Virus record (IMG/VR): IMGVR_UViG_2706795740_000001
Span: 32,001-96,000 of that record
DNA from: a virus
Lineage: Duplodnaviria; Caudoviricetes
Direction: 5' to 3' (one strand)
DNA length: 64,000 nt
Position numbers and translations under genes: made by a program
In this document: in pieces, positions 2,505 to 62,067 of the stretch
Layout of the letters: each line of letters opens with the position of its first letter
How positions within the stretch are numbered: the stretch's first letter is position 1
Notes under the pieces: model-generated
Seen by the model: the letters and a program-made list of their open reading frames with translations, nothing else
Told to the model about the DNA's origin: nothing
Database searches by the model: none

Positions 2505-5177
2505 ATGGCAGATACTTCATACCAACCAACACCGTGGCTTGACACAATGCTAAACGAAGAACACCTACTTGAAGGGTTGGTGGGCATATGTTTGAATAAC
2601 GGATGGACAAAAGTAGGCGAGTTTACGAAAGTTGTCTATCCAAGTAAGTTGACGAAGCCGACCATTAAAAGATTCTACTTGCCGCTGGCTAACCCTGATG
2701 TAGACGTTCCTGAGGTACTGAATGATGAATACTATATCTTCCTTGAAGGGGAGATTTGCCCGATAACCTATTACAAAGCTGTTAAGAATGGTGACGGCAC
2801 AACAACCATCACGTTCGAGCCGGGGGTGTCGGGCCAAGTCGCAATCTATTACAGTGACGTAAAGGGAACAGATGAGTTCGAGTTCTATGTGGCCAAGCAC
2901 TATATTGTACGTAATGCTTCTGGCAACCTTTTCGGCATGGCGATGCTTGCCAACTTTAAAGAGCAGATGCAGAATACGGGCTGTAAAGTTCCATTCTCCA
3001 TCTACGATTCCAATATTGACGACGAGTATGATTTTGGGGCACAACTGAGACCACAGGACTTAGGCGTTTTTTCTTGGGCGAAGCAGAAAGCGGAAGAGGA
3101 AGGACTGTATGAGCGGCATACGCTTTACTTTTATCAATTAGAGAAGTTCGCTAATGGCGGACGATGGTTAACGGGGTGGGATAAACCAGCAGACTACAAG
3201 AGGCTGGCGCTAGATGCAGAAATTCAAACAACTATGTGGGGTCTGGCAGACCAAACAAATGCCTTGCAGTTCAAGATTACTGACAAGTACCCATCTAACT
3301 ATCAATCACCCATAGTGACGGCTCATACCCGTATCCCACAGCTTGAGAACGTAGAGAAGCTAGGGTTCTTAGACGTAAAGTACACGAACTGGTGGGATGA
3401 CAGTAAGGTATTCGTCAAGGGATTCATTGACGGAAAATCCCTAATGTTCATTATTATTGCGGACACTGCTCCGGTTTGGGACAGCAACGCCGTTCCTGCT
3501 ATTCCTCTCTACATGGGTGACTTTGAAATCGACGGAGCTAAAGATGAGGTAGTGAACCGCGACATTACATTCGATTTCCATGAAGCTCAGACAAGGGCTT
3601 CTACTGTCATTTCTAGTAAGCCTATGATCAATGCAGGCTCTACTGTAAAGATTTGGCTTATGGGGGACTGTGACGGAGATGTAGGTAATGAATCTATTAC
3701 CCTGAAGATTGGCGATACGGAAGTAGGGAAGTTTAATACCGCAGACGCAGTAGAGCCTACAGGTAACAGGGACGATGCTCAGTTCATGGGTGAGTTTCCT
3801 ATAACGGGTGTGGAGGGTAAGAATAACGTAACCATCGAAGCAGTCAGTGACAGCGACGTGAGCGGTTACAGTCCTGTGTCTGCTAGAATGTGGTTGGAGC
3901 TGACCATTAACACTGACAAGAACGCTGATGGCGCGCCGTCTGCTCTATTCTCCGGTACTGCTTACAGCAAGGACGGAGAGGACGTAACCAAGGCTCTGAA
4001 GCGATCAGCAGAATTTGACTATGATGATGTGAATTTGAAGCAAGAGGTTCTTCTTCCAATCATGAAAGATTACTCGCACTATCCAAGTAATGGTGTTGAT
4101 TCTATCATGGTCAAAAGGACAAAATACGGGGCAAGATATCAGGCCCATTACCTTTCGTGGAACGTTCCATCCAACACTATGCCCCCTGTTAGGCAGAATA
4201 AGGACGGACACAAACACCCAAGGGCATGGGACAATTTCATGAATGAGCAGTACAAATTCCAGTTCAGTCCGTCACGTTATAGCGGCAAAGCACACTCTTC
4301 AAGAGCGCTCCTAATTCACCCTGAAGATGGCGGATTTGGAACATTGCGAAATGTTATTTTGGTGTCACCCTTAACTATAATGAATGGTGATGAATTGAAA
4401 GTTGTTAAAAACCACTGTGATGATGAGAATAAATATGAGGTGTATTCTTATTATTTGGTAGAGGGCATTTCCCCTCTAACAAAAAGACCAGCAACGGCAT
4501 TTAGGCCTGCGGGGCTGGGCATCTTAAAGGCAGGGTACACGTTACCTGAGATTCCACCCCCACCGCCTCCTCCTCCGCCGTTAGTTGTAAATATCAGCCC
4601 TTCTAGTTCGACTATAGAAGCAGGAGCAAGTATTAAATTCACCTCAACTTATAGTAAGCATTCTCCTATGTCTAATTTCAAGTGGGACGTTTCCAGCGAT
4701 GTATCGAGAGGTAGTTTTACGGTGGATAATGCAACATTCGTGTTCAAGAATGCAGGGACGTACCAAGTCGCATTCGCATTTTGGAATGAGTTGGGACAGA
4801 AGGGAGTGGTATCCGCCACTGTGGTTGTCAATGAACCGCCTCTTCCCCCGCCCCCACCGCCCCCTCCCCCACCGCCAAATACGTTGCAGTGTGGTCACTT
4901 AAATGACACAGGCGGAGGTAGGATTACTGAAAAGTACCATGAGATGGGAGATAAGTCAGGCTCAGTAAGAATCGACTACGATATGTACGGATACCCCGAC
5001 AGAATTGACGTTTTTTACCAAAGTCAGTTACTTGCATCGTCCAACGGCTATGTGGTGAATAAAGGTCAAGTAAACTTCTCATACGCACCTGTAGGGGGAG
5101 TAACTCAGATTAAGGTAATTATTAGTTCTGACTCGGATGGAACAAGTTGGGAATACATGGTTAACTGCCCTGTGTAG
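2505..5177 (+). CDS. Putative virion protein, paralogue 1, with poly-Pro linkers and PKD/Ig-like C-terminal domains
   Basis: Shares TNWWxDS, GARYQAHYLSWN, PSRYSxKxH and VEGxSPLTK motifs with the next gene; two poly-Pro tracts. Confidence 0.75.
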   Translation: MADTSYQPTPWLDTMLNEEHLLEGLVGICLNNGWTKVGEFTKVVYPSKLTKPTIKRFYLPLANPDVDVPEVLNDEYYIFLEGEICPITYYKAVKNGDGTTTITFEPGVSGQVAIYYSDVKGTDEFEFYVAKHYIVRNASGNLFGMAMLANFKEQMQNTGCKVPFSIYDSNIDDEYDFGAQLRPQDLGVFSWAKQKAEEEGLYERHTLYFYQLEKFANGGRWLTGWDKPADYKRLALDAEIQTTMWGLADQTNALQFKITDKYPSNYQSPIVTAHTRIPQLENVEKLGFLDVKYTNWWDDSKVFVKGFIDGKSLMFIIIADTAPVWDSNAVPAIPLYMGDFEIDGAKDEVVNRDITFDFHEAQTRASTVISSKPMINAGSTVKIWLMGDCDGDVGNESITLKIGDTEVGKFNTADAVEPTGNRDDAQFMGEFPITGVEGKNNVTIEAVSDSDVSGYSPVSARMWLELTINTDKNADGAPSALFSGTAYSKDGEDVTKALKRSAEFDYDDVNLKQEVLLPIMKDYSHYPSNGVDSIMVKRTKYGARYQAHYLSWNVPSNTMPPVRQNKDGHKHPRAWDNFMNEQYKFQFSPSRYSGKAHSSRALLIHPEDGGFGTLRNVILVSPLTIMNGDELKVVKNHCDDENKYEVYSYYLVEGISPLTKRPATAFRPAGLGILKAGYTLPEIPPPPPPPPPLVVNISPSSSTIEAGASIKFTSTYSKHSPMSNFKWDVSSDVSRGSFTVDNATFVFKNAGTYQVAFAFWNELGQKGVVSATVVVNEPPLPPPPPPPPPPPNTLQCGHLNDTGGGRITEKYHEMGDKSGSVRIDYDMYGYPDRIDVFYQSQLLASSNGYVVNKGQVNFSYAPVGGVTQIKVIISSDSDGTSWEYMVNCPV

Positions 5178-26095: not shown

Positions 26096-26974
26096 TTATA
26101 TTGTATTTGCAAGGGGATGATATTTCGCAAAAGTCTCTTTTTTATTTTTCTTAGAGATTTGAGCATAGATTTTAGTTGTGGCAATATCCTCATGCCCAAG
26201 ATACTCCTGAACAATCGCCATGTCGCAACCATTATCCAACAAGTGGGTAGCGTAACTGTGACGGAACACATGGGGGCTGACGGCTCTAGGGTCTATGCCA
26301 GATATAGAGGCAACACGCTTTACAACCTTGTAAATACCTTCCCTAGACATGGGGGCTGAAGGGTCTAGTTTGCTAGGCAATAGCCAACCCGAAGTAATCT
26401 TATGCTTGAACATAAATAGCTTGATTAATTCGAGGCAACCTGCATGGATAGGGTTCTCGCGAGTCTTCTTTCCTTTGCCTTTCATCCGAATGAAGCCCTC
26501 TTCAAAATTAATGTCCTCAACTCTAATTTTTGCTATCTCACTAACGCGTCCACCTAACCCATAAAGTAGCTCGATAATGAGTTGATCTTTCAATCTATGC
26601 TCGGTTGCCGTGGTGATAAGAGAATTTACATCAGTCTTAGAGATTGCTTTCGGTAGTGGCTTTTCTTTTTTACCGCATTTAACTTGGGCGGCAGGCGAGT
26701 CTTTGACAGCATGCTCAATATCTACAAGATATTTAAAGAAGGTTTTGAGTGAGCAAAGCATCCGGTTAATAGAGCTACGTGCTCTACCTAGAACGTCCAG
26801 ATGTGCTATGTACATGCGGATATGTGAAGGCGTTATTTCAGTAACGTCTTTAGGGGTCTTCTCGAAATCCAAGAAGTTAATAATGTCTCTTTCATAGCTG
26901 TCAATAGTGTGCTTGGAAGAGTTTTTGTCCGTTTGCAGGTACAGCTTGAAAGATTCAACATAATTCATTGACAC
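26096..26974 (-). CDS. XerC/XerD-like tyrosine recombinase
   Basis: SAM-like N-terminus, GGRVSE, GKGKKTR, HVFRHSYATHLL, LGH..IATTKIY catalytic motifs. Confidence 0.93.
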   Translation of the reverse strand: MSMNYVESFKLYLQTDKNSSKHTIDSYERDIINFLDFEKTPKDVTEITPSHIRMYIAHLDVLGRARSSINRMLCSLKTFFKYLVDIEHAVKDSPAAQVKCGKKEKPLPKAISKTDVNSLITTATEHRLKDQLIIELLYGLGGRVSEIAKIRVEDINFEEGFIRMKGKGKKTRENPIHAGCLELIKLFMFKHKITSGWLLPSKLDPSAPMSREGIYKVVKRVASISGIDPRAVSPHVFRHSYATHLLDNGCDMAIVQEYLGHEDIATTKIYAQISKKNKKETFAKYHPLANTI

Positions 26975-27736: not shown

Positions 27737-28528
27737 GTGGTAGGTGTGAGTTTTAAGATGAAATACCCTATTGAGAAAAAGTACCTCCCAAACAAGTCTA
27801 AGAGACGTTCCGGTATTCTGATTCCAAAGGTAGGCTTTATCGTAGCGCATGATACTGGTAACGATGGGAGCACGGCCTTGGGAAACATCAACTGGTATAC
27901 TAACACAGCTTACCAACAAGACCCGTCGGCCCACACTTTCATCGACGATCAACATATCGTAGAGTGTATTCCTGCAACTACAGGAGCGCCTGAGAAAGCT
28001 TGGCATGTACTTTATGAAAAAACAATCGACAATGAATTGTTTGGCGATGATGCTAACGATATAGCGATTGGGGTAGAACTTTGCTACAGCTATAAGAAAG
28101 GCTCTATCAATAACGCAGAAGCTTATAAGCGTTATGTGTGGTACATGGCTTATCTGTGTTATAAGTTTGGTCTTGACCCTGCTACGAAGATTACAGGTCA
28201 CTTTATTCTTGACCCCGAACGTAAGACCGACCCACAGAATGCTCTCACCAAGTACGGCAAGAACTTCGACATTCTAGTGAAGGATGTAGTCGCTGAGTAT
28301 AAGGCATGTACGGCAGGGGAGACGCCAAAATCTAAGGTATTGGAGGATGATTCATCTATGAAACTCAATGATTGGGCATTCGATATGCTAGTTGAGGCAC
28401 TTACAGAGTTTAAGTCTGAAGGGTACTTTACTGACGATGCGTGGATTGCCAAGGCAAAGAACAAGACGCTCACTGCGTCAGAGTTGGCCTTCTTGAATAC
28501 GATCATGCTGAAAAAGGCGGTGAAGTAA
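27737..28528 (+). CDS. Endolysin, N-acetylmuramoyl-L-alanine amidase (Amidase_2)
   Basis: IVAHDTGN, SAHTFIDD, AWHV, IGVELC, ITGH..DP motifs. Confidence 0.9.
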   Translation: MVGVSFKMKYPIEKKYLPNKSKRRSGILIPKVGFIVAHDTGNDGSTALGNINWYTNTAYQQDPSAHTFIDDQHIVECIPATTGAPEKAWHVLYEKTIDNELFGDDANDIAIGVELCYSYKKGSINNAEAYKRYVWYMAYLCYKFGLDPATKITGHFILDPERKTDPQNALTKYGKNFDILVKDVVAEYKACTAGETPKSKVLEDDSSMKLNDWAFDMLVEALTEFKSEGYFTDDAWIAKAKNKTLTASELAFLNTIMLKKAVK

Positions 28529-28828
28529 ATGGAAATGATTGCTATGTTCATACTTGTGGCTTTCCTAACAGAGACCTTAACTGAGATTCTTAAAAACATG
28601 ATACCGAACGATACAATACAAGACAAAGGTACTTATGTGTTGTCTATTGTTATCGGTGTCATTCTTGCTTATGCTTTTGCTCTAAACCCATTTGCTTTAG
28701 TCGGTGCGGCCAAGCATGTATCCATTGTATCGGCGGGACTGATTGCAAGCCGTGGAGCAAACTTTGTTAACGGCTTCATGAAGCAGGTTGGAATCATTAA
28801 ATCCGGTAGCCTCAATCAAAAGAAGTGA
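28529..28828 (+). CDS. Holin
   Basis: Three TM segments, GLIASRGANFV motif, basic C-terminus. Confidence 0.75.
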   Translation: MEMIAMFILVAFLTETLTEILKNMIPNDTIQDKGTYVLSIVIGVILAYAFALNPFALVGAAKHVSIVSAGLIASRGANFVNGFMKQVGIIKSGSLNQKK

Positions 28829-28852
28829 CCCCGTTAAGGGGTCTTTTCATTT
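28826..28852 (+). terminator. Intrinsic terminator
   Basis: GACCCC-GTTAA-GGGGTC plus T-run. Confidence 0.7.
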
Positions 28853-28864
28853 TCACCTATATAA

Positions 28865-28892
28865 ACTAATTGCAGTATGTACTAATTGTACA
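28865..28892 (+). promoter_or_regulatory. Ter-like RTP binding site 1
   Basis: ACTAATTGCAGTATGTACTAATTGTACA resembles B. subtilis Ter (ACTAA-N6-TATGTACYAAATNTTCA). Confidence 0.8.
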
Positions 28893-28935
28893 TAAACCTC
28901 CCTATTAGCAAATATTATCTAATACGGGGATTGTT

Positions 28936-28963
28936 TGTACAATTAGTACATAGTACAATAGGT
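28936..28963 (-). promoter_or_regulatory. Ter-like RTP binding site 2 (inverted), overlapping putative rtp promoter TTGTTT-17-TACAAT
   Basis: Reverse complement ACCTATTGTACTATGTACTAATTGTACA; 17-bp core identical to site 1. Confidence 0.8.
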
Positions 28964-29006
28964 ATCAATAGGGCCAAATTTTACATTAAACGGGTGATGT
29001 GATATA

Positions 29007-29381
29007 ATGATGAAAAGAAATAATCGAGAACGGAACTTTTTAACTAAACAACGAGCGTTTTTAAAAGTCTATTTGATCACAAAGATAAAAAAGGGAAGAA
29101 GTTACGGATTACAGTTGGCCAGAGAGCTTGCAGATGAATTTATACGAGATGGTTTTGTCCCAACTAGTGCTGAAGTTTACCGTTCACTTGATGAGCTAGT
29201 CGAACAGGGAATTGTCTCACGGCACACTCAGTTGCAAGAGGGGACGGAGAAAAAGCCGATCATAATCTATAAAATTAGTGACCTACATAGAGCCGATTCA
29301 TACTTACAGCTTGTGCAACAAGATTTAAAAAGGTCTCAGAGATTGATAGAGAAAGCGTTAAAAGACAATTTCCATAAATAG
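29007..29381 (+). CDS. rtp: Replication terminator protein
   Basis: FLxKQRAFLKxY, YGL, EVYRSLxEL, LIEKALxDNF align end to end with B. subtilis RTP. Confidence 0.9.
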   Translation: MMKRNNRERNFLTKQRAFLKVYLITKIKKGRSYGLQLARELADEFIRDGFVPTSAEVYRSLDELVEQGIVSRHTQLQEGTEKKPIIIYKISDLHRADSYLQLVQQDLKRSQRLIEKALKDNFHK

Positions 29382-29392
29382 AAATGAAAATC

Positions 29393-29418
29393 AAGCCTGC
29401 ATATCGTAGGCTTTTTAT
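29393..29418 (+). terminator. Intrinsic terminator
   Basis: AAGCCTGC...GTAGGCTT plus T-run. Confidence 0.6.
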
Positions 29419-29803
29419 ATTGCGTTTTAAGAGGTTTTATTTCTTAACCTTATTTTTACATGGGCAACTTTATTTTAAAGCTCAAAACCGACGTATGGGC
29501 TTCTTGTGATGTTAATTCCTTGAAGTGCCGACCAGAAAACTTGACCGATCATGATTATATGTGATATGATTATTTATTTAAAGATTTATTATGGTTCAGT
29601 GCTTAAAACTGCTCTTTCATGAACTGAAAATAAGAAAGTAGACAATATGTCTATTGCCTACTCACCTATTTGTTGTCGAATGACACAAACATGTATACCA
29701 TTTTATCGTATTACTGTAGCTTTCAAAAACCTTGATCAAAAGTTCAATAATGTTTAACTGTTATCTTTAATGTCAAAGCTGATATCAAAATTATTAGTGG
29801 GAG

Positions 29804-30010
29804 TTGAAATTTTTGATCGGCACTCTAACAAAGAATTTTCAGGGTAGATATTCCTTGCCTAATGGACAATACTTTACAACAGGCGATGAAATTGAGGTTA
29901 AGCTAGATATAACTTGGATAAAAACAAGCGTACATCATGACTTAAAAGATTATTACCTAGTTGATTATCCAAATGTTCCAATGGAAGGATTATTGGCAAG
30001 GAAGCCATAA
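29804..30010 (+). CDS. DUF5348-like small protein
   Basis: GRY...G..IEV....WI.......YYL pattern. Confidence 0.5.
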   Translation: MKFLIGTLTKNFQGRYSLPNGQYFTTGDEIEVKLDITWIKTSVHHDLKDYYLVDYPNVPMEGLLARKP

Positions 30011-30025
30011 GGATTGATAGAGCAT

Positions 30026-30262
30026 TTATCTCTTATCATCCCACTTGTACATGTTTGCATCAATATCATCTATGGCACTTTGTACGTTATCGTATGAGCG
30101 TTGCCAAAAATGATTGTGGTCAATCACGTAACCAAGTCTATCTCCAGTCGAAGGGTTCGCTCCCCTAAGAGTACAAATATCAATTCCACGGTGGATGTAT
30201 ACAGACACATAACGATCATCAATATCAGGGTTTTGCACTTGTGGTGCGATACGAGTTTTCAT
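30026..30262 (-). CDS. Hypothetical protein
   Basis: RBS GGAGG before ATG 30262. Confidence 0.55.
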   Translation of the reverse strand: MKTRIAPQVQNPDIDDRYVSVYIHRGIDICTLRGANPSTGDRLGYVIDHNHFWQRSYDNVQSAIDDIDANMYKWDDKR

Positions 30263-30371
30263 ATAAATCCTCCTTACAATGTTATCCTGTGCTGTACGAG
30301 CCATTTTAAGGGACGAAAACAAAATCTTATTGATCACTTGCCTTAAACGTTTGCTTTTGAAGCTGATATTT

Positions 30372-30803
30372 TTAGCCTTCTTCCTCTAGCAATGGGTTAT
30401 ATTGTTGACCCTCTTTCTTTCTATTCAGGAGTATATTCCATTTATCTCCTTCCTTCACTGTCGTAAAAGCGACTTTATTTATGATGTTCTTATCATTAGC
30501 GCCCTCACGGCTCCTAAATTTTATTTCAGTGATTACCTCACATTTCCCTTCATCTACACATTCACTACTAATTACTTTGAAATATTCCATTGGTGCTTTG
30601 ACATTAGAGGTTACAAACGCTTCCTTGGTAGGTGGATTATCAGCACTTACCATGCCGTATGCTTCTTCTTCTTTATAATCTTTCAAAGCTTGTAAGTAAT
30701 TAGATACTAGTGCTTCCTGTGGGGAAGGCTCTTTAGAAGCACAGCCAGTTAAAGCTAAAGACGCCACTAAGATGGCACTGAAAATACTTTTACAATTTTC
30801 CAT
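30372..30803 (-). CDS. Lipoprotein (NTF2/DUF4878-like)
   Basis: Lipobox LTGC; KEGDKWNI C-terminal motif. Confidence 0.7.
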   Translation of the reverse strand: MENCKSIFSAILVASLALTGCASKEPSPQEALVSNYLQALKDYKEEEAYGMVSADNPPTKEAFVTSNVKAPMEYFKVISSECVDEGKCEVITEIKFRSREGANDKNIINKVAFTTVKEGDKWNILLNRKKEGQQYNPLLEEEG

Positions 30804-30891
30804 TTTTTCACCTCAAAATACTTTTTTTGTAAAAATTGGTATGGTATAATAATAGTGTATCACACAATAGAAAAATAGAGGTGGGATTTTT

Positions 30892-31452
30892 ATGAAAAAG
30901 GGTATCATGAAAAAGGGTATTGTATCAACAGTTTTAACACTTAGCTTATTAGCTCCGGCGACAGGGGCGTTTGCAGAAGAAAGTCGCAGTAACTATGATT
31001 ACAACATCGAAGAGAGCTTAAAACTACGAGAGTCTGAAGATTCTGAAGAAGATGCACTCTTAGATTTAAGAGTGCCATCTGAAAGCAGAGGAATATCTGC
31101 ACAAGGAATTGATATCTTGTCAGCCTACGGTAAAGTTCTTTTTGAAGCTGATTTTAAAGTCAAAAAGAACTTTCAATTACCTTACACTGTACGTATAAAA
31201 GATAGCGATAACGATTCCATACGAATTATGACTGACACAGAGAGATATACCAGTAGTAATGACGAGTTCACAGTCCTATTAGAAGCATATAATGATCGTT
31301 CTGAATCTTGGTATATAGTAGACCGTGTAACTTGCAAAGTCGGTCAAAAAATGTACGAACATTTCTACGACCTCAAAACATATGAAGAGTATCGCTTGAC
31401 AATAAAAGGTAATGTCCAAGGTACTATCACTGTTTTCCAACAAACTAGATAA
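30892..31452 (+). CDS. Secreted protein
   Basis: Sec signal peptide ending AFA; divergent from the lipoprotein. Confidence 0.7.
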   Translation: MKKGIMKKGIVSTVLTLSLLAPATGAFAEESRSNYDYNIEESLKLRESEDSEEDALLDLRVPSESRGISAQGIDILSAYGKVLFEADFKVKKNFQLPYTVRIKDSDNDSIRIMTDTERYTSSNDEFTVLLEAYNDRSESWYIVDRVTCKVGQKMYEHFYDLKTYEEYRLTIKGNVQGTITVFQQTR

Positions 31453-31457
31453 ATGTA

Positions 31458-31487
31458 ATAGACCGCCAGACAGGGCGGTCTTTATTA
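31458..31487. terminator. Bidirectional terminator
   Basis: AGACCGCC-loop-GGCGGTCT between convergent genes. Confidence 0.65.
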
Positions 31488-31495
31488 TTCAATGT

Positions 31496-32089
31496 TTAGT
31501 TAACTAATTTAACAAGAATTTCTTTGAAAGAAGAGTATTCAGTTAAGCTATAAGCATCCGCATCTTTGTAAAAGTAGTTTAAACTTAAATCATCAATACT
31601 ATTCAATCTATTTCTAAGTCCTTGAAGCTCTTCTTCCTTCCGATTAACTTCAATTCTTATTTTTTCAGCCTCATCATCAGGGATAGAGTAGCAAGTGAAA
31701 GAAGCTCTCGGAGACTTACCACTTTGATTGATAAGAATAACATACTCATTATCTTCATCTCTACGAGGGTCATCGTAAAGAAATAATGTTGATAGGCTTC
31801 CAAAAAAAGGGTAAGAAGCTTCATATGTAACTAGAGAATAGGATAAATTATGGTACGTAGCTTCAATAATTTTTTTCTTATATCTAACACCGTCAGAAAC
31901 TTCTACTTCATTTTTAGTAGAAGTCGAAAATCCTAAAGAGTGAAAGTATTCCTCAAACTCTTTGTTTGCCATTTCAATACTTTTTTCAATTTTCGGAAGC
32001 CTTTTCTTTGAAATTTCTGCGTATGCGTCCTCAATTTGTTTCTTTAAGTCTTCCAATTCCATTTTCAATTTTAACATAATCTCGACCAC
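31496..32089 (-). CDS. Hypothetical coiled-coil protein
   Basis: 197-aa ORF, AT-rich. Confidence 0.6.
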   Translation of the reverse strand: MVEIMLKLKMELEDLKKQIEDAYAEISKKRLPKIEKSIEMANKEFEEYFHSLGFSTSTKNEVEVSDGVRYKKKIIEATYHNLSYSLVTYEASYPFFGSLSTLFLYDDPRRDEDNEYVILINQSGKSPRASFTCYSIPDDEAEKIRIEVNRKEEELQGLRNRLNSIDDLSLNYFYKDADAYSLTEYSSFKEILVKLVN

Positions 32090-32141
32090 CTTCTATATAT
32101 TGTTGTTAGAGTCTAAGTAGACACTACATATTGATTTAAGT

Positions 32142-32269
32142 GTATCATATATTCCAAAGTATGTAAACTTTATTGATATAATATTTGTATTTGTTTACAT
32201 AATTAATATTATGTACATTGACCGTGTGCTTTACTTTTATAAGTTTACATAATCTTTATTATCGGACTC
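32142..32269. other. dif-like Xer recombination sites (32242-32269 best; 32192-32219; half-site in 32142-32169)
   Basis: Reverse complement of 32242-32269 is GAGTCCGATAA-TAAAGA-TTATGTAAACT; its right arm equals the B. subtilis dif arm; 11-6-11 geometry. Confidence 0.7.
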
Positions 32270-32389
32270 ATCGAAATGTTCACTAAAAAAAGAAATAGAC
32301 CACATAGCTGTGGTCTACTCTTTAGGTGTTTTCGCTTTGTTGATTGGTTACTTTTAGTTTAGCACAATATCCTTTATAAAGCTATCAAA

Positions 32390-33190
32390 TTACTCATCGA
32401 GGGCTTTCAATGCCAAAATAGCTGTTTCTATTTGCCTATCATCAGGCTCGGCGGTTGAAATGTACTTTTGAACAAAGCCGCCCAAGGCTAAGAATGGTTT
32501 TGAAATAATATTACCCTCAAGCCTAAAAATCTCATAACTTAATGATAAACTCAATAACAGATTCAAAAGTGGCATGTATGGAAACAAAATCATTAATATG
32601 ATTAATACGACTACTGCCATAGCTATGAGGTTAGTGCCACAATTATCGGATACTCGACTCATCTTCCTTACATTATCAACTGTTAAATCTACACCGGCAC
32701 TAAAAGCGTTATACGCCATATGCTCTGCCCCATGATACCTAGACAGCTTGCTAAATCTTATTACCGCCAAGCCAACAAATAATACAATGAATAGACTTAA
32801 TATAATGAAATAGACAATATAGTTAAGGGAAATGGGAATCATTATTTTAATTTCTGGATGGGTTTCTGGAAACCATTTACCTATGATAAATATATAAGCC
32901 CACATGCAGGCGACAATACTATAGAATATTCGTATTTTTCTTTCTGCCAGTATTAACTGCCCCATGACAGCTAGCCCCATGACAGCTAGCCCTCTAATAA
33001 AAGGGATTCTTTCAAAGAAACTTAAAAAGTGTACTCTTTGTTCGATTCTCTTTTTACGTTTCACTTCTATTGCACCGCTTGAGGATAGTGTAGCTTTTGA
33101 AACATAGTGGTCACTAAAAAACATGACACCGTTCAAGCTTGCTCTGCCCCCGTTTATGTCTGTTGGTAATAGCATTCTATCAAACCTCAC
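32390..33190 (-). CDS. DUF1385 (YqhQ-like) membrane protein
   Basis: GGRA..GVM, PFIRG, YHGAEH, CGTN, TAEPDDRQIE motifs. Confidence 0.8.
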   Translation of the reverse strand: MRFDRMLLPTDINGGRASLNGVMFFSDHYVSKATLSSSGAIEVKRKKRIEQRVHFLSFFERIPFIRGLAVMGLAVMGQLILAERKIRIFYSIVACMWAYIFIIGKWFPETHPEIKIMIPISLNYIVYFIILSLFIVLFVGLAVIRFSKLSRYHGAEHMAYNAFSAGVDLTVDNVRKMSRVSDNCGTNLIAMAVVVLIILMILFPYMPLLNLLLSLSLSYEIFRLEGNIISKPFLALGGFVQKYISTAEPDDRQIETAILALKALDE

Positions 33191-33328
33191 TCTTATTATG
33201 AATAATACAGTATAAATGGAACGATCACTGTAATTGTACCAAAGGTATTATACTATATAGTATACCATTAATTCCCACAGAAAAGAGCTTTTCATAGGCA
33301 CTCTGTGATATAATTTAGAAAGAAAAAC

Positions 33329-33898
33329 TTGGGAGTTGAACATATGCCGCCTATATGGAAAAGAAGCCCTGTTAATGAAAATCCGTTGGGTTACCGTAAG
33401 CACGAAGTACCCGCTGAACGCATTGACCAAATTCAAGAATATTTAATCAGTAACACTTTAAGAGTTTACTGTGACACCTCTTACAGACAAAATGAAGGAA
33501 TATATGGGGTGGCAAGTTCATTTGTTGGATTCAACTCGGTGATTGTACATGATGATAAAATCTATTCAAAGTTGGTTGCTCACTCCATCTTTGGGGAACT
33601 TTGTGCTTTGAAGCTCGCACTTCTGAAACTACCGAAACATGTTACAAATATACAACGGCCGGATGGGGTAATTCTATTTTCTGACCACGATAAGATTCAA
33701 TACATCTTAGAAAACAGTGTACGTAAGTATAAAGTGATAATAGACCCGATTATCACTGAAATCAATTCTCTCCTGCACCAATTAAAGGTGTCACTTAATG
33801 TAGATATAGAGATTCGATACCTTGGGGCGGATAAAAGGCACAATCCGTTTTACAAGTCGGCACATAATGCTTCCAGAAAAGCTATCGGAATATTATAG
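33329..33898 (+). CDS. RNase H-like protein
   Basis: VYCDTS...GELCAL...ILFSD acidic motifs; last Asp apparently replaced (AHNAS). Confidence 0.6.
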   Translation: MGVEHMPPIWKRSPVNENPLGYRKHEVPAERIDQIQEYLISNTLRVYCDTSYRQNEGIYGVASSFVGFNSVIVHDDKIYSKLVAHSIFGELCALKLALLKLPKHVTNIQRPDGVILFSDHDKIQYILENSVRKYKVIIDPIITEINSLLHQLKVSLNVDIEIRYLGADKRHNPFYKSAHNASRKAIGIL

Positions 33899-33981
33899 CT
33901 ACCACTAATTCAAAATTAATGGCATTTGTAATACCAAATATGGATGGATATAATAGAGTGGGTTGTAGGTGAATTACAAAT

Positions 33982-34029
33982 AAGAATAAGACCTTCCTTA
34001 GTCTGCAAATTAGGGAAGGTCTTATTCTT
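33982..34029. terminator. Long bidirectional terminator at the last +/- convergence
   Basis: AAGAATAAGACCTTCC...GGAAGGTCTTATTCTT inverted repeat. Confidence 0.75.
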
Positions 34030-34100
34030 TAATACTCATGTTTGGCATGTTCATTTTAGTTCTGTTTAGACCTCCCTTGAGCTGACAACCTGGGGGAAGT

Positions 34101-34625
34101 CTATTTCTTCAGCAAGTCTTTTTTGAGCCGCCCCTTGGCTACGTATTGAGATTCTCCATGTAATCTAGCATATTTGATCATGGTGTTGTAAATAGTTAAT
34201 CTTACTTCACTGCTTTCAAAAGTTCCAGCAATTTCTATCAAGTTCTGCAACAACTCGTTGGTACTTTTTTTGGAGTTTTCAAGAAATTTCATTGCTACTT
34301 TTTCTATCAGCGAGAGATTTGAAAACTCAGCAACCTCAGTCAAGAAGTCGTTTAGAATTGCATTTCGATGCTCAAGTTCAATATAGCATTCGATGACTTC
34401 CTCATAAGGCATCCCTAGCACATCTGCGATAGGTTTTATATACTTCATTCTAGGGCTTTTTATCTCACCTGTTTCTATTTTCGATATAGTGCTTTTAGGG
34501 ACTCCAGAGATTCTCCCTAATTCCGATAAGCCGACCTCCTTCTCTTCCCTTTTCTTTCTTATCAGTTCGCCTATTGTTGTGTAGTTTAGGTTGTGATCCA
34601 TGCCGATCTCCTTTCGAATCTTCAC
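34101..34625 (-). CDS. XRE-family HTH regulator with truncated helical (TPR-like) region
   Basis: IGELIRKKRE..SELGRISGVPKSTISKIETG HTH; helical C-terminal part ends at YVAKG-RLKK. Confidence 0.8.
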   Translation of the reverse strand: MKIRKEIGMDHNLNYTTIGELIRKKREEKEVGLSELGRISGVPKSTISKIETGEIKSPRMKYIKPIADVLGMPYEEVIECYIELEHRNAILNDFLTEVAEFSNLSLIEKVAMKFLENSKKSTNELLQNLIEIAGTFESSEVRLTIYNTMIKYARLHGESQYVAKGRLKKDLLKK

Positions 34626-34825
34626 ATATTTCTTTGTAATCTTTTATCAAGCTTAACTTTATATTGACATTAATGTATAATTATGTAAATGTCAATAAAA
34701 ATTAATAGATTGATTTACTTTTCTTTATTTAAACCTAATTAATATATTAATATACAAATACCGCATTATCATATATGCCCTTAAATATAAAAGAGACTAC
34801 CTTCTTCAAGGTAGCCTTCTCCATC

Positions 34826-34963
34826 TTACTGTTCGCCGTAGAAACATTGTCGGCAGAAATATTCAATATCTCCTTTAGCATCTAGGGTTTCTTGGATATC
34901 TACCTCATCTTCATGGTTTCCGCATTGAATGCAGACGATGGTTTTAATAGTTCTATACGGCAT
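34826..34963 (-). CDS. 45-aa CxxC/CxxC zinc-ribbon protein (not in ORF track)
   Basis: GGAGG RBS; MPYRTIKTIVCIQCG...FCRQCFYGEQ. Confidence 0.6.
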   Translation of the reverse strand: MPYRTIKTIVCIQCGNHEDEVDIQETLDAKGDIEYFCRQCFYGEQ

Positions 34964-34974
34964 ATAGTTACCTC

Positions 34975-35589
34975 CTAGTATCGTGTTACGGTAGCGTAGG
35001 CGGGGATAAATTTGAGCGGTCGTTCTGTGCTTTCGATAGCATGATTACGGTAAGAAAGGTTTCTTTCTTCGGCAATAGGTATAAACTTAGCCAGTAACTT
35101 GCGTGTCATCTCCACATCCTTGGTCGCTTTATGATGGCCTTCTGCGTCATAGAAACCATGACGCTTTGCTACGTCCTCTAAAGAAGCCTTTTCATTTGGC
35201 TCAACTAGCCTACTCAGTACCCGCGTACAAATAAACTTATGTGGGTACAGGCCATAGTTGTGTAAGAAGCCGAAGTCAAATGGCGTGTGGTGGGATACAA
35301 CAATCGGCTCAAGCTCATTATCGTTGTTGTTGTAAATGAACTCCCACAAGCCTTTAATGGCATGTCCCTCAGATATGCCGTTCCTATTCAAGAACTCATC
35401 AGTAAGGCCAGTTAGATTTTTAACTAATGTCGATAGTGATCGGCCATTTTCTAATTGTACATAAGCATGATATGAGCCTATAACATTGAAATCAGGGCTA
35501 ACTCGGATAGCCGCAATCTCTGTTACTTGCTCTATATCATAATCTAATCCTGTAGTTTCAAAGTCGATAATGACGTAGTTGGGTCTCAT
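34975..35589 (-). CDS. DnaQ-like DEDDh 3'-5' exonuclease
   Basis: IIDFETTG, HHTPFD, HKATKD motifs. Confidence 0.9.
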   Translation of the reverse strand: MRPNYVIIDFETTGLDYDIEQVTEIAAIRVSPDFNVIGSYHAYVQLENGRSLSTLVKNLTGLTDEFLNRNGISEGHAIKGLWEFIYNNNDNELEPIVVSHHTPFDFGFLHNYGLYPHKFICTRVLSRLVEPNEKASLEDVAKRHGFYDAEGHHKATKDVEMTRKLLAKFIPIAEERNLSYRNHAIESTERPLKFIPAYATVTRY

Positions 35590-35590
35590 G

Positions 35591-35890
35591 CTATACCTCC
35601 ATTAGATAGGTTTTAATGTAATCTTCAAGTTGATCAAGCCAGCTATCTATCGCTTTCTTCGCTAGAGCACTGCTGAAGCGTCCCAATTCTTTTTCGTCAT
35701 ACATGACCACTACCGTAGGAATGAACTTGATTTCAGAACTAAGGGAAGGTGCATGCTCAATCTTCTCGACCTTGACATGGCATCTCTCTTTGGCAATCTT
35801 GTCGATTGTCTTATCAATCCTACGGCAGTGGCCGCACGACTTGCTGTAGTAAAGCTTAAGTGTTAAGGGCTTGGTCAACATGGGCGGCAA
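35591..35890 (-). CDS. Thioredoxin-family protein
   Basis: CGHC motif, IPT cis-Pro. Confidence 0.75.
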   Translation of the reverse strand: MPPMLTKPLTLKLYYSKSCGHCRRIDKTIDKIAKERCHVKVEKIEHAPSLSSEIKFIPTVVVMYDEKELGRFSSALAKKAIDSWLDQLEDYIKTYLMEV

Positions 35891-36116
35891 TGACAGCTTC
35901 AGGCTGATCGCCTACAAAGCGGCCAACCTCCACCTCAGCCTTTACCAGCACTACTGTGGGGACGCTCATTACACTATGCTTCTCTGCAAGGCTAGGGTTC
36001 TGCTCAATATCAATTTCCTCGATAGTAAGACCACGTGCTTCAGCGATTTTTTCCAGCTTTAGAGTAAGTTGCTTGCATGGACTGCACCGCGTATCCAAAA
36101 AATTCAAGACTTGCAT
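35856..36116 (-). CDS. Thioredoxin-family protein
   Basis: CSPC motif, VMSVPT, GRFVG. Confidence 0.85.
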   Translation of the reverse strand: MQVLNFLDTRCSPCKQLTLKLEKIAEARGLTIEEIDIEQNPSLAEKHSVMSVPTVVLVKAEVEVGRFVGDQPEAVIAAHVDQALNT

Positions 36117-60757: not shown

Positions 60758-61339
60758 TTATGGTCGCTCCATGTGCTTCTTGAGTTGCGGTACAGAGCAC
60801 CAAGGCAATAATCCTTTTACCTCAAGTTGCTCTATCAGTTTTAGGAACTCCATAAAATTGGTGACACGATAGTCCAAATCACGACCTTTCTCTAAGTGCT
60901 TATTGTGTGGGGCATCCATACAAACTCTAATTGGCAAAAAATTCGGATTAAATTCAGGGGAATCATCCAGTAACAGATCACCACGAATCAGGTACTTATC
61001 AAATGTCGTAATAACATTCTTCTGGCCAATCCACGGAAAGTGTCTGTCTACCCACATTTTCTTCTCCATTGCAGAAGAAGGTGTCGGAGCGGCAGTGACA
61101 AAGAAAATTCTATGGTTCACGCTTAGATCACGAAGCACCGTTTGAGAGTCTTTTGTTACATCTAACTTCCAGTAGATGCCCTCACGTTTAAAGTAAGTTC
61201 CTAGAACTTCTCTGTTCTTGTTCCAATCTGTTAAAGTCTTTGGGTCTAGTCTCTCTCCCGTCTCGACTTCATGCAGATGGATAACATAACCCAGAAGGTC
61301 AGCCACTACTTCATCCATGTCTACAAGTAAAATTGCCAT
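60758..61339 (-). CDS. 5'(3')-deoxyribonucleotidase (NT5C, HAD family)
   Basis: LVDMDEVVAD, FVTA, EK..WV..HFP, LLLDD. Confidence 0.88.
   Translation of the reverse strand: MAILLVDMDEVVADLLGYVIHLHEVETGERLDPKTLTDWNKNREVLGTYFKREGIYWKLDVTKDSQTVLRDLSVNHRIFFVTAAPTPSSAMEKKMWVDRHFPWIGQKNVITTFDKYLIRGDLLLDDSPEFNPNFLPIRVCMDAPHNKHLEKGRDLDYRVTNFMEFLKLIEQLEVKGLLPWCSVPQLKKHMERP
60759..60788 (-). promoter_or_regulatory. Class I phage promoter
   Basis: GCAACT-N16-CGACCATA, overlapping the 3' end of the upstream gene. Confidence 0.7.
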
Positions 61340-61990: not shown

Positions 61991-62067
61991 CCATCTCTCC
62001 CATATCTCATTTGCCTTACACTATCTATGGTGGAGTTATCTATTAAAATAGTTGCGAAAAATAAAAA
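61991..62067. repeat. 77-bp exact direct repeat, copy 2
   Basis: Identical to 46484..46560; includes class I promoter 62026..62055. Confidence 0.9.

What the first reader, a model, noticed from the sequence alone, without database searches (positions are those of the whole stretch)
28865..29381. Phage-encoded replication fork trap: rtp with an opposed pair of Ter sites
Seen: a full-length RTP homologue preceded by two 28-bp inverted sites, 43 bp apart, that share TATGTACTAATTGTACA and resemble B. subtilis Ter. Established: B. subtilis rtp is likewise preceded by inverted TerI/TerII, and forks arrest when they meet the core B half first. Here both core halves face inward, which is trap geometry. 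Site 2 covers a TTGTTT-17-TACAAT promoter, suggesting autorepression. The core variant (TAATTGTACA versus CAAATGTTCA) may give specificity distinct from host sites. Inference: the element replicates bidirectionally as a circle. If it were integrated, the trap could stall host forks.
Basis: partly seen in the sequence, partly recalled or inferred. Interest (0 to 1): 0.82.

Follow-up and report, generated by a model that had tools for sequence, protein, structure and literature searches.

The report
Phage-plasmid with RTP/Ter replication terminus
A 126-kb Brevibacillus-type phage that probably lives as a plasmid carries its own copy of the Bacillus replication-terminator gene with two opposed stop sites in front of it, placed where the two halves of the genome meet, so it most likely ends its own DNA replication the way the Bacillus subtilis chromosome does.

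Summary
Window 29007-29381 encodes a full-length RTP (Pfam E 1.3e-35). Its model matches B. subtilis RTP 1F4K (TM 0.85-0.92). Two perfect inverted 17-mers (TATGTACTAATTGTACA, 28876-28892 and 28936-28952, 43 bp apart) are the only such copies in the 126-kb genome. They are also its two best matches to the published Ter consensus.

The order (+ then -) is that of the innermost Ter pair beside rtp in B. subtilis-group chromosomes.

The window lies in a complete virus record with terminase, portal, capsid and tail genes. It also has a Rep gene holding DnaA boxes and an actin-like partition cassette. Cumulative GC skew peaks 1 kb from rtp, roughly opposite the origin region. A XerC/D-like recombinase and dif-like sites lie within 3 kb. 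In two other complete RTP-bearing viral genomes rtp also sits about 1 kb from the skew peak.

Most likely this is a working, probably autoregulated, fork trap of a phage-plasmid. Skew and gene direction are confounded, and arrest is untested.

Known before: pBtic235's rtp gene (PMC8116677), and PHROGs names this protein. This scan found the same kind of module earlier on other DNA (e1-5466344).

The parts
26096..26974 (-). XerC/XerD-like tyrosine recombinase (292 aa), candidate dimer resolvase of the terminus region
   Evidence: Pfam Phage_integrase plus SAM-like N domain. NCBIfam XerD 2.5e-71 and XerC 1.8e-67, both below the equivalog cut-offs. pBtic235 likewise has xerS next to its rtp.
28827..28843 (+). 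Terminator-like hairpin closing the lysis operon, just before the Ter pair
   Evidence: GACCCCGTTAAGGGGTC followed by a T run. It follows the amidase gene 27737-28528 and the small membrane-protein gene 28529-28828.
28863..28892 (+). Distal Ter site (TerII-like): A-like half AAACTAATTGCAG and core TATGTACTAATTGTACA. Expected to stop leftward-moving forks.
   Evidence: Best match in the genome to the published Ter consensus, 21/25, above all 30 shuffles. AACTAA is in the same register as in B. subtilis-group sites.
28936..28965 (-). Proximal Ter site (TerI-like), reverse orientation, core at 28936-28952. Expected to stop rightward-moving forks and to overlap the rtp promoter.
   Evidence: Second-best consensus match, 19/25. 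Perfect inverted copy of the distal core. The same position and orientation are seen in B. subtilis-group, p1821L01 and B9 loci.
28931..28959 (+). Putative rtp promoter TTGTTT-17-TACAAT lying across the proximal Ter site
   Evidence: Read from the sequence. It is weak and was not listed by the consensus scan. The TACAAT/TACAAA element is kept in the two Brevibacillus loci. Autoregulation is inferred by analogy with Ahn et al. 1993 as cited in PMC10331603.
29007..29381 (+). rtp: replication terminator protein homologue, 124 aa (the start may be the second ATG at 29010)
   Evidence: Pfam RTP E 1.3e-35. PDB 1f4k E 5e-25. AlphaFold2 pLDDT 90 with top Foldseek hit 1F4K, TM 0.85/0.92, rmsd 1.4 A. 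phrog_38489 'replication terminator' over full length. 91% identical protein in B. laterosporus.
29393..29413 (+). Terminator-like hairpin after rtp, which makes rtp a monocistronic unit
   Evidence: AAGCCTGCATATCGTAGGCTT followed by a T run.
32143..32270 (.). Three dif-like 28-mers spaced 50 bp apart. The best is 32243-32270, AGTTTACATAATCTTTATTATCGGACTC.
   Evidence: 22/28 to the Firmicute dif ACTTCCTATAATATATATTATGTAAACT (PMC11040001), with an 11/11 match in the XerD-side arm. It is the best match in the genome, though only 1 above the shuffle maximum of 21. A 27/28-identical 28-mer occurs 7.4 kb from rtp in the unrelated 197-kb record G004, and a 26/28 dif match lies 624 bp from rtp in G001.

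Best explanation
The window is the middle of a complete 126-kb tailed-phage genome of Brevibacillus type that is probably maintained as a circular, low-copy plasmid prophage.

Replication is proposed to start in the region around the record's ends. That region holds a Rep gene with an internal DnaA-box cluster at genome 1.9 kb, an actin-like partition cassette at 2.9-4.6 kb, and the skew minimum at 120.7 kb. Two forks would then run co-directionally with the two gene arms.

The forks would meet at a chromosome-like terminus module with four parts:
- a monocistronic rtp gene;
- two opposed Ter sites, 43 bp apart, in its upstream region;
- a XerC/D-like recombinase gene 2 kb to the left;
- dif-like sites 3 kb to the right.

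RTP dimers bound to each bipartite site would let a fork pass when it meets the 5' (A-like) half first and stop it when it meets the core half first. The rightward fork would stop at the proximal site and the leftward fork at the distal site. Neither fork could go round the circle a second time.

Because the proximal site lies across the likely rtp promoter, RTP would also limit its own synthesis.

Shown here: homology, fold, site sequence, number and orientation, position at the skew apex, and recurrence of the cassette in other replicons.

Inferred: DNA binding, polar arrest, autorepression, plasmid lifestyle, and use of the host or phage replisome.
For: Protein:
- Pfam RTP full length and the PDB RTP sequence match.
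- Model with pLDDT 90 whose best structural match is 1F4K (TM 0.85-0.92). PadR-type regulators reach only about TM 0.6.

Sites:
- They are the only two copies of the core in 126 kb.
- They are the top two matches to the published Ter consensus.
- The layout is distal '+', proximal '-', as in nine B. subtilis-group loci and in two B. laterosporus replicons with the same core.
- In B. spizizenii the seven Ter-like sites form two opposed groups whose innermost pair has this same order.

Family-wide trait:
- 47% of 93 rtp upstream regions hold an inverted pair with at least 14/17 matches, against 8% of control windows.
- Several viral contigs have lineage-specific pairs.

Replicon:
- Virus record with 359-bp terminal repeat, CheckV 100%.
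- Terminase, portal, capsid and tape-measure genes.
- Rep with HTH_36 and DnaA_N domains, and DnaA boxes at 1878-1913.
- ALP/ParM-like gene preceded by an 11-bp repeat array.

Terminus position:
- Skew maximum at 62,022 against rtp at 61,007; minimum at 120,735; arms of 67.6 and 58.7 kb.
- Genes switch from the + strand to the - strand at 62 kb.
- rtp lies 1.2 kb and 0.7 kb from the skew maximum in the complete records G001 and G004, and 11 kb away in G005.
- dif-like sites and a Xer gene lie nearby. pBtic235 has xerS beside rtp.
Against: - No experiment supports binding or arrest.
- GC skew and gene orientation switch at the same place. The apex falls just after the last + strand gene, 1.1 kb right of the Ter pair, so the skew may reflect coding-strand composition rather than replication. 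My attempt to separate the two leaned towards an arm effect, but spurious antisense ORFs could produce that result.
- The junction of the two arms is also a low-GC accessory region (GC 0.34-0.37 at window 28-34 kb), where unrelated 'moron' genes tend to collect.
- In G001 and G004 the arms are very unequal (97/41 kb and 126/71 kb). In G005 rtp is 11 kb from the apex.
- G001 shows only one recognisable Ter-like site upstream of rtp.
- Residue 30 is Gly here. In B. subtilis E30 has been implicated in helicase contact (from my own knowledge, Manna et al. 1996). Y33 is kept.
- The phage also has its own DnaB-like helicase, primase and PolA. Whether RTP stops that replisome is unknown.
- A closed trap would block rolling-circle concatemer synthesis, so RTP would have to be off or bypassed in the lytic cycle.
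Confidence: 0.7

Rival explanations
1. The protein is only an autoregulated PadR-like winged-helix transcription factor, and the inverted pair is its operator. Its position at the arm junction reflects the usual placement of accessory 'moron' genes after the lysis cassette. Replication is not affected.
For: - RTP is structurally a PadR relative (PadR 26.1 bits; PadR/LmrR hits).
- rtp is a self-contained unit between two terminators.
- It lies in a low-GC region of small genes of mixed orientation.
- The skew apex coincides with the gene-strand switch.
Against: - The match is to RTP proper (122.7 bits; 44-46% identity to 1F4K). The PadR score is below its cut-off.
- The sites match the fork-arrest Ter consensus, including the A-half register.
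- rtp co-locates with skew maxima in three independent genomes, each with P about 0.007-0.018.
- rtp co-locates with dif-like sites and Xer genes.
- In B. subtilis the same promoter-overlapping sites act as both operators and terminators (PMC10331603).
Confidence: 0.17
2. The cassette acts mainly on the host. Because the core is identical to that of B. laterosporus replicons, the phage RTP binds host or plasmid Ter sites, or host RTP binds the phage sites. The phage could thereby alter host termination, or gain incompatibility or exclusion against co-resident RTP-bearing plasmids. If the element integrates through its Xer-like recombinase at host dif, it would add a trap to the host terminus.
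For: - Exact core shared with the 1.38-Mb B9 replicon and with p1821L01, although the RTPs are only about 41% identical.
- Xer-like recombinase and dif-like sites are present.
- Published speculation that pBtic235's Rtp serves the host chromosome (PMC8116677).
Against: - Rep, DnaA boxes and a partition cassette point to plasmid maintenance.
- The sites sit at the element's own skew apex.
- No integration junction was seen.
- Cross-binding is untested, and the recognition-helix residues differ (TSA in the phage against NHA/NHT).
Confidence: 0.1
3. The cassette is a decaying passenger picked up from a host or plasmid and has no current function.
For: RTP is very rare in phages. tblastn found none in 50,697 deposited phage records and nine contigs among 2.9 million viral contigs.
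Against: - The ORF is intact, and a 91%-identical full-length copy exists in another B. laterosporus element.
- The two cores are perfect inverted copies.
- The cassette and its terminus position recur in diverged viral genomes.
Confidence: 0.03

Closest known systems
Bacillus subtilis RTP with TerI/TerII upstream of rtp (PDB 1F4K, 1BM9, 2EFW; Ter consensus of Griffiths et al. 1998 as quoted in PMC3317982)
   Same: - Same protein family and fold.
- Same bipartite site plan, with the shared half TATGTACTAA and AACTAA in the same register.
- Same opposed pair directly upstream of rtp, with the proximal site over the promoter region.
- Position at the skew-defined terminus.
   Different: - It sits on a 126-kb tailed-phage genome, not a chromosome.
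- It has a single pair only. B. spizizenii has seven sites in two groups.
- The spacer between cores is 43 bp, against about 100 bp between the cores in the B. subtilis group.
- The core's second half is TTGTACA rather than ATGTTCA or ATATTCA.
- Identity is about 44%. Residue 30 is Gly, and the recognition helix reads TSAEVYRSLD.
RTP cassettes of Brevibacillus laterosporus replicons (plasmid p1821L01, CP033461.1; strain B9 'plasmid unnamed2', NZ_CP011076.1)
   Same: Identical Ter core, one pair per replicon, same orientation, and the proximal site 46-52 bp before the start codon.
   Different: - Those RTPs are only about 41% identical to the phage protein.
- The spacers are 140-156 bp.
- p1821L01 is a RepB/ParA plasmid with a T4SS coupling protein and CRISPR-Cas, and has no phage genes.
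pBtic235, the 235-kb circular jumbo plasmid-prophage of B. thuringiensis israelensis, which encodes an Rtp-like protein and a Xer recombinase (PMC8116677; PMC9700832)
   Same: A phage-plasmid carrying rtp beside a Xer-type recombinase. A TerII/TerI-like pair can be seen at -152 (+) and -44 (-).
   Different: - About 35% protein identity.
- A different core (CCATGTTCCAAATATTC).
- In the papers I could search only the gene was noted, not the sites or their position in the replicon.
Tus-Ter traps of E. coli and of plasmids R1/R6K
   Same: The same logic: opposed polar sites and an autoregulated terminator gene with a site in its promoter (PMC10331603). Terminator systems also occur on mobile replicons.
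   Different: Unrelated protein and sites. Tus is a monomer with a different locking mechanism.

Membership tests
RTP (replication terminator protein, Pfam PF02334) | Full-length match to the RTP profile above the curated cut-off | tested here: met
   122.7 bits against a cut-off of 26.7, residues 11-122 on profile positions 2-113 of 113. phrog_38489 'replication terminator' 124/124.
RTP (replication terminator protein, Pfam PF02334) | Winged-helix fold with a long C-terminal helix, as in solved RTP structures | tested here: met
   Model pLDDT 90.2, with elements H15-28, H34-48, H54-66, E70-75, E85-90 and H93-122. Top Foldseek hits are all RTP chains, the best being 1F4K_A at TM 0.85/0.92 and rmsd 1.4 A.
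RTP-Ter fork-arrest system | Cognate bipartite (A + B) Ter sites matching the family consensus | tested here: met
   21/25 and 19/25 to KMACTAANWNNWCTATGTACYAAATNTTC, the top two matches in the genome; shuffle best 18-20. The A-like half is good in the distal site and weak in the proximal site.
RTP-Ter fork-arrest system | Opposed orientation, so that forks can enter but not leave | tested here: met
   '+' at 28876 then '-' at 28936. This is the same order as the innermost pair of B. spizizenii, whose outer sites fix the polarity, and the same as in nine B. subtilis-group loci.
RTP-Ter fork-arrest system | Location at the replication terminus, opposite the origin | tested here: inconclusive
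   The skew maximum is 1 kb from rtp, and the arms are 58.7 and 67.6 kb. However, the skew is confounded with the gene-strand switch, and there are no replication data.
RTP-Ter fork-arrest system | Sequence-specific binding of two dimers per site and polar arrest of the replicative helicase | not testable with these tools
   This needs EMSA or footprinting, 2D gels or helicase assays.
RTP-Ter fork-arrest system | Autoregulation through a Ter site in the rtp promoter | tested here: inconclusive
   The proximal site lies 42-71 bp before the ATG and covers a weak TTGTTT-17-TACAAT. The consensus scan did not list this promoter. It listed instead TTTACA-17-TATAAT at 28980-29008, which overlaps the start codon.
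PadR-family transcriptional regulators (PF03551) | Match above the Pfam gathering score | tested here: not met
   26.1 bits against a cut-off of 27. Structural matches to PadR/LmrR reach only TM 0.53-0.68.
Phage-plasmid (plasmid prophage) | Complete set of virion genes together with plasmid replication and partition genes on one circular or terminally redundant molecule | tested here: met
   - Terminase, portal, major head and tape-measure genes.
- Rep with DnaA boxes.
- ALP/ParM-like gene with an upstream repeat array.
- 359-bp terminal repeat and CheckV 100%.
- The extrachromosomal state itself was not observed.

The most novel reading that the evidence does not exclude
The rtp gene with its own two Ter sites is a self-contained, portable 'terminus cassette' that moves among chromosomes, plasmids and phage-plasmids of Bacillaceae and Paenibacillaceae.

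In phage-plasmids it would work with Xer/dif as a lysogeny-specific device. It would force theta-mode termination, block rolling-circle or over-replication, and keep the prophage monomeric. It would have to be switched off for lytic concatemer synthesis.

Because the phage shares the exact Ter core with its host's replicons while having a 41%-identical protein, it could also cross-talk with host termination or with plasmid compatibility.

This would parallel, for RTP, the published proposal that the E. coli Tus-Ter trap was domesticated from plasmids.
Probability: 0.25. Interest if true: 0.7.

Novelty: new member of a known kind. Interest (0 to 1): 0.52.

Why it matters
RTP-Ter is usually described as a chromosomal system of B. 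subtilis and close relatives.

Here the whole cassette (gene plus an opposed site pair) sits at the skew-defined terminus of a tailed-phage genome. A Xer recombinase gene and dif-like sites lie beside it, and the origin and partition genes lie on the opposite side. The arrangement is a miniature bacterial chromosome.

The same cassette recurs in other large viral genomes and plasmids, each with its own co-varying core. This gives:
- natural protein/site pairs for studying RTP specificity;
- small replicons on which polar arrest and fork fusion can be tested easily;
- data on whether fork traps spread on mobile elements.

For phage biology it raises a concrete question: how does a phage that must make concatemers coexist with a closed fork trap?

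The gene's presence in a phage-plasmid was already noted for pBtic235, and PHROGs already names this protein. The advance is therefore in the sites, the geometry and the replicon context, not in a new kind of system.

Tried and rejected
- The search for related loci with the single protein found no viral relative. A 9-sequence alignment worked.
I therefore could not sample Brevibacillus chromosomes directly. The status of the 1.38-Mb B9 'plasmid' (true megaplasmid or piece of chromosome) remains open.
- Griffiths et al. 1998 (PMC107290) is not held. I took the consensus from PMC3317982 instead.
- A search for further Ter sites in the phage, as back-up sites like TerIII-IX, found none beyond chance. 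The 3-mismatch hit at genome 67,445 (+) was rejected because in that orientation it would leave 6.5 kb unreplicated.
- I tried to separate replication skew from coding-strand skew using minority-strand ORFs. The arm term (0.06-0.07) exceeded the strand term, but false antisense ORFs could give the same result, so I do not rely on it.
- The strong promoter-like site at 28980-29008 (11/12, with TG) was rejected as the rtp promoter. Its -10 hexamer overlaps the start codon, and the N-terminus is conserved in P0001.
- DNA-level searches against deposited phages matched only the endolysin of Brevibacillus phage Sundance.
Full report
**1. What is in the sequence**

Window 29007-29381 (+) is a 124-aa ORF. 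It matches Pfam RTP over the whole profile (E 1.3e-35, 122.7 bits against a cut-off of 26.7). The related PadR model stays just under its cut-off.

Against solved structures the best sequence matches are the B. subtilis RTP chains (1f4k, E 5e-25, residues 6-122 aligned to 6-122). An AlphaFold2 model built on 31 family members has mean pLDDT 90 and the RTP topology: three helices, a two-stranded wing and a 30-residue C-terminal helix. Its best Foldseek hits are all RTP chains (1F4K_A, TM 0.85/0.92, rmsd 1.4 A, 46% identity). PadR/LmrR-type regulators follow at TM about 0.55-0.68.

Upstream lie two perfect inverted copies of TATGTACTAATTGTACA, at 28876-28892 (+) and 28936-28952 (-), 43 nt apart. 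They sit inside longer 44-nt arms that are 77% complementary.

A terminator-like hairpin (28827-28843) closes the preceding lysis genes and another (29393-29413) follows rtp. rtp is therefore a unit of its own.

**2. Is it more than chance?**

In the whole 126,341-bp genome the core occurs only at these two places with 2 or fewer mismatches. Hits with 3-4 mismatches are as frequent as in shuffled sequence.

The published B. subtilis Ter consensus is KMACTAANWNNWCTATGTACYAAATNTTC (quoted in PMC3317982). Scored against it, the two sites rank first and second in the genome, with 21/25 and 19/25 specified positions. The best hit in each of 30 shuffles scored 18-20.

The distal site also carries AACTAA in exactly the register of the A half of B. 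subtilis-group sites. The proximal site's A-like half is weaker.

**3. Geometry**

I fetched rtp loci from 80 Bacillaceae genomes. In nine B. subtilis-group species a '+' site stands about 160 bp before rtp (TATGTACYAAATGTTCA) and a '-' site about 48 bp before it (TATGTACTAAATATTCA). The phage has the same layout, '+' at -131 and '-' at -71.

In the complete B. spizizenii genome the core pattern finds seven sites. Four '+' sites lie at 1.88-2.1185 Mb and three '-' sites at 2.1186-2.25 Mb. The innermost pair, 117 bp apart, lies just upstream of rtp. Forks coming from the origin must pass the sites on their own side. The 5' (A) end is therefore permissive and the 3' core end blocks. The literature states the same (PMC10331603).

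The phage pair has the same order, '+' then '-'. A rightward fork should pass the distal site and stop at the proximal one, and a leftward fork should do the reverse.

**4. What replicon is this?**

The window is bases 32001-96000 of a virus record of 126,341 bp with direct terminal repeats and a CheckV completeness of 100%. The repeat is 359 bp and exact.

Virion and lysis genes:
- Large terminase, portal, major head protein and a 1738-aa tape measure.
- A lysis cluster just left of rtp.

The minus-strand arm carries a replication and nucleotide-metabolism set:
- RNR, RecA-like and ThyX genes;
- a PolA gene split around a LAGLIDADG gene;
- primase, a DnaB-like helicase and an IstB-like loader.

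Near the record's ends lie the plasmid-type functions:
- A 347-aa Rep protein with HTH_36 and DnaA_N domains (genome 1469-2512, minus strand; phrog 'replication initiation protein'). Its gene contains three DnaA boxes within 36 bp at 1878-1913.
- An actin-like ALP/ParM-type gene (3122-4288), preceded by an array of 11-bp CACCTTTTTTT repeats at 2867-3046.

The closest RTP (91% identity) is from Brevibacillus laterosporus, on a 133-kb contig. The element is therefore best read as a Brevibacillus phage-plasmid. The extrachromosomal state itself was not observed.

**5. Position of rtp in the replicon**

Genes run on the + strand from 2.5 to 62.0 kb and on the - strand from 62.0 to 119 kb.

Cumulative GC skew rises to a maximum at 62,022 and falls to a minimum at 120,735. 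The arms are 67.6 and 58.7 kb. rtp starts at 61,007 and the Ter pair lies at 60,863-60,965.

I repeated the test on three other complete RTP-bearing viral records found through a family alignment:

| Record | Size | rtp position | Skew maximum | Distance |
|---|---|---|---|---|
| G001 | 138 kb | 120.4 kb | 119.2 kb | 1.2 kb |
| G004 | 197 kb | 140.4 kb | 141.1 kb | 0.7 kb |
| G005 | 206 kb | 186.3 kb | 174.9 kb | 11 kb |

The chance of a random position falling that close is 0.007-0.018 for G000, G001 and G004, and 0.11 for G005. ALP homologues lie within 4.4-6.9 kb of the skew minima of G004 and G005.

The caveat is serious. In all of these genomes the skew follows the gene-strand switch, and the apex in G000 falls right after the last + strand gene. 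My attempt to separate arm and strand effects is not reliable.

**6. A terminus module**

Two kb left of the Ter pair is a XerC/XerD-like recombinase gene (26096-26974; NCBIfam XerD 2.5e-71, below the equivalog cut-off).

Another first-stage note (e1-5883972) pointed to dif-like sites at 32142-32269. I checked them against the Firmicute dif quoted in PMC11040001.
- The best match in the genome is AGTTTACATAATCTTTATTATCGGACTC at window 32243-32270. It scores 22/28, with one arm matching 11/11. This is only marginally above the shuffle maximum of 21.
- Two weaker copies lie 50 and 100 bp to its left.
- A 28-mer that is 27/28 identical lies 7.4 kb from rtp in G004.
- A 26/28 dif match lies 624 bp from rtp in G001.
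- pBtic235 has xerS directly beside its rtp.

RTP loss raises dimer formation in B. subtilis (Lemon et al. 2001, as cited in PMC10331603). A trap placed next to a dimer-resolution system is therefore functionally coherent for a low-copy plasmid prophage.

**7. The cassette elsewhere**

- RTP is a small family: 40 clusters at 50% identity among 1.8 billion representatives.
It finds it in 26 large non-mobilizable plasmids of Bacillus, Paenibacillus and Brevibacillus, in nine viral contigs of 31-239 kb and in 135 species' genomes.
- Upstream inverted pairs are a family trait. A pair with at least 14/17 matches occurs in 47% of 93 upstream windows against 8% of controls.
- The cores are lineage-specific. 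Examples are TATGTGAAAAATTCACA, CATTGTCTAAAGTCTTCA and CATGTTCCAAATMTTCA.
- Two B. laterosporus replicons carry exactly one pair each of the very same core as the phage: plasmid p1821L01 and a 1.38-Mb record deposited as a plasmid. Their RTPs are only about 41% identical to the phage protein and differ in the recognition helix.
It raises instead the possibility of cross-recognition.

**8. Mechanism and its weak points**

Shown here:
- family membership and fold;
- site sequence, uniqueness and orientation;
- the replicon architecture;
- recurrence of the cassette in other replicons.

Inferred:
- RTP dimers bind both halves of each site and stop forks that meet the core first.
- The trap confines fork fusion to the 43-bp interval.
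- RTP represses its own promoter.

That scan lists a stronger site at 28980-29008, which overlaps the start codon and so cannot serve the full-length protein.

A closed trap would also stop a rolling-circle fork. I therefore infer that the cassette serves the plasmid (lysogenic) mode and must be silent, titrated or bypassed during lytic concatemer synthesis. This is speculation.

**9. Prior knowledge and novelty**

- PMC8116677 already records that pBtic235, a non-integrated jumbo prophage, encodes its own Rtp-like protein and a Xer recombinase. It speculates about a role in host termination.
- PHROGs already labels this very protein 'replication terminator'.
- One recent phage paper annotates a putative terminator protein without analysing it.
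- In the held library I found no description of Ter sites, trap geometry or terminus position for any phage RTP.
- Within this scan, the same kind of module was reported earlier on other DNA: a 239-kb phage-plasmid (e1-5466344). Another first-stage note covers this same stretch.

I therefore class it as a new member of a known kind. It is well supported at the sequence level, of moderate interest, and easy to test.

Noticed in passing
window 32143-32270: Three dif-like 28-mers spaced exactly 50 bp apart. The best, at 32243-32270, matches the Firmicute dif at 22/28 with a perfect 11-nt arm. A 27/28-identical 28-mer occurs in the unrelated 197-kb viral record G004 at 147,779.
   Followed up: partly
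L002:1766-1990 (genome 1766-1990, outside the window): Inside the Rep (HTH_36 + DnaA_N) gene: TTATCCACA, TTGTCCACA and TTATCCACA within 36 bp, plus five CAGATTTTGA-type repeats. This is a candidate internal origin that recruits host DnaA.
   Followed up: partly
L002:2867-3046 (genome coordinates, outside the window): An array of about ten 11-bp CACCTTTTTTT/AAAAAGGTG repeats in both orientations, directly upstream of the actin-like ALP/ParM gene (3122-4288) and a 102-aa partner ORF. It looks like a parC-type centromere.
   Followed up: partly
L004:1109-5207 (genome 97109-101207): The family A DNA polymerase is in two ORFs (492 aa N-terminal part, 262 aa C-terminal part), separated by a LAGLIDADG homing-endonuclease gene and another ORF.
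   Followed up: no
L005:4026-4345 (genome 120026-120345): A dense set of (A)TTTGTCAAT(AGG) boxes, direct and inverted, with 26-28-bp phasing. They lie in the AT-rich divergent region at the skew minimum and may be the immunity operator region.
   Followed up: no
window 28980-29008: A near-consensus promoter-like site, TTTACA-17-TATAAT with an upstream TG. Its -10 hexamer overlaps the rtp start codon, so it cannot drive the full-length protein as annotated.
   Followed up: no
P0003 (protein database hit): A 262-aa protein made of two tandem RTP domains. It is the best-scoring representative (E 4.8e-33, two matched stretches) and may be a single-chain 'dimer' form of RTP.
   Followed up: no
L126:4772-4944 and W01 (NZ_CP011076.1, 336243-336415): A 1.38-Mb B. 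laterosporus record deposited as a plasmid has an unannotated rtp gene with the same exact Ter core pair as the phage. PLSDB lists only 16 features for the whole record.
   Followed up: partly
window 28000-36000: GC content drops to 0.35-0.37 (against 0.43-0.46 elsewhere) in the stretch of small, mixed-orientation genes at the junction of the two arms. This is typical of an accessory region.
   Followed up: no
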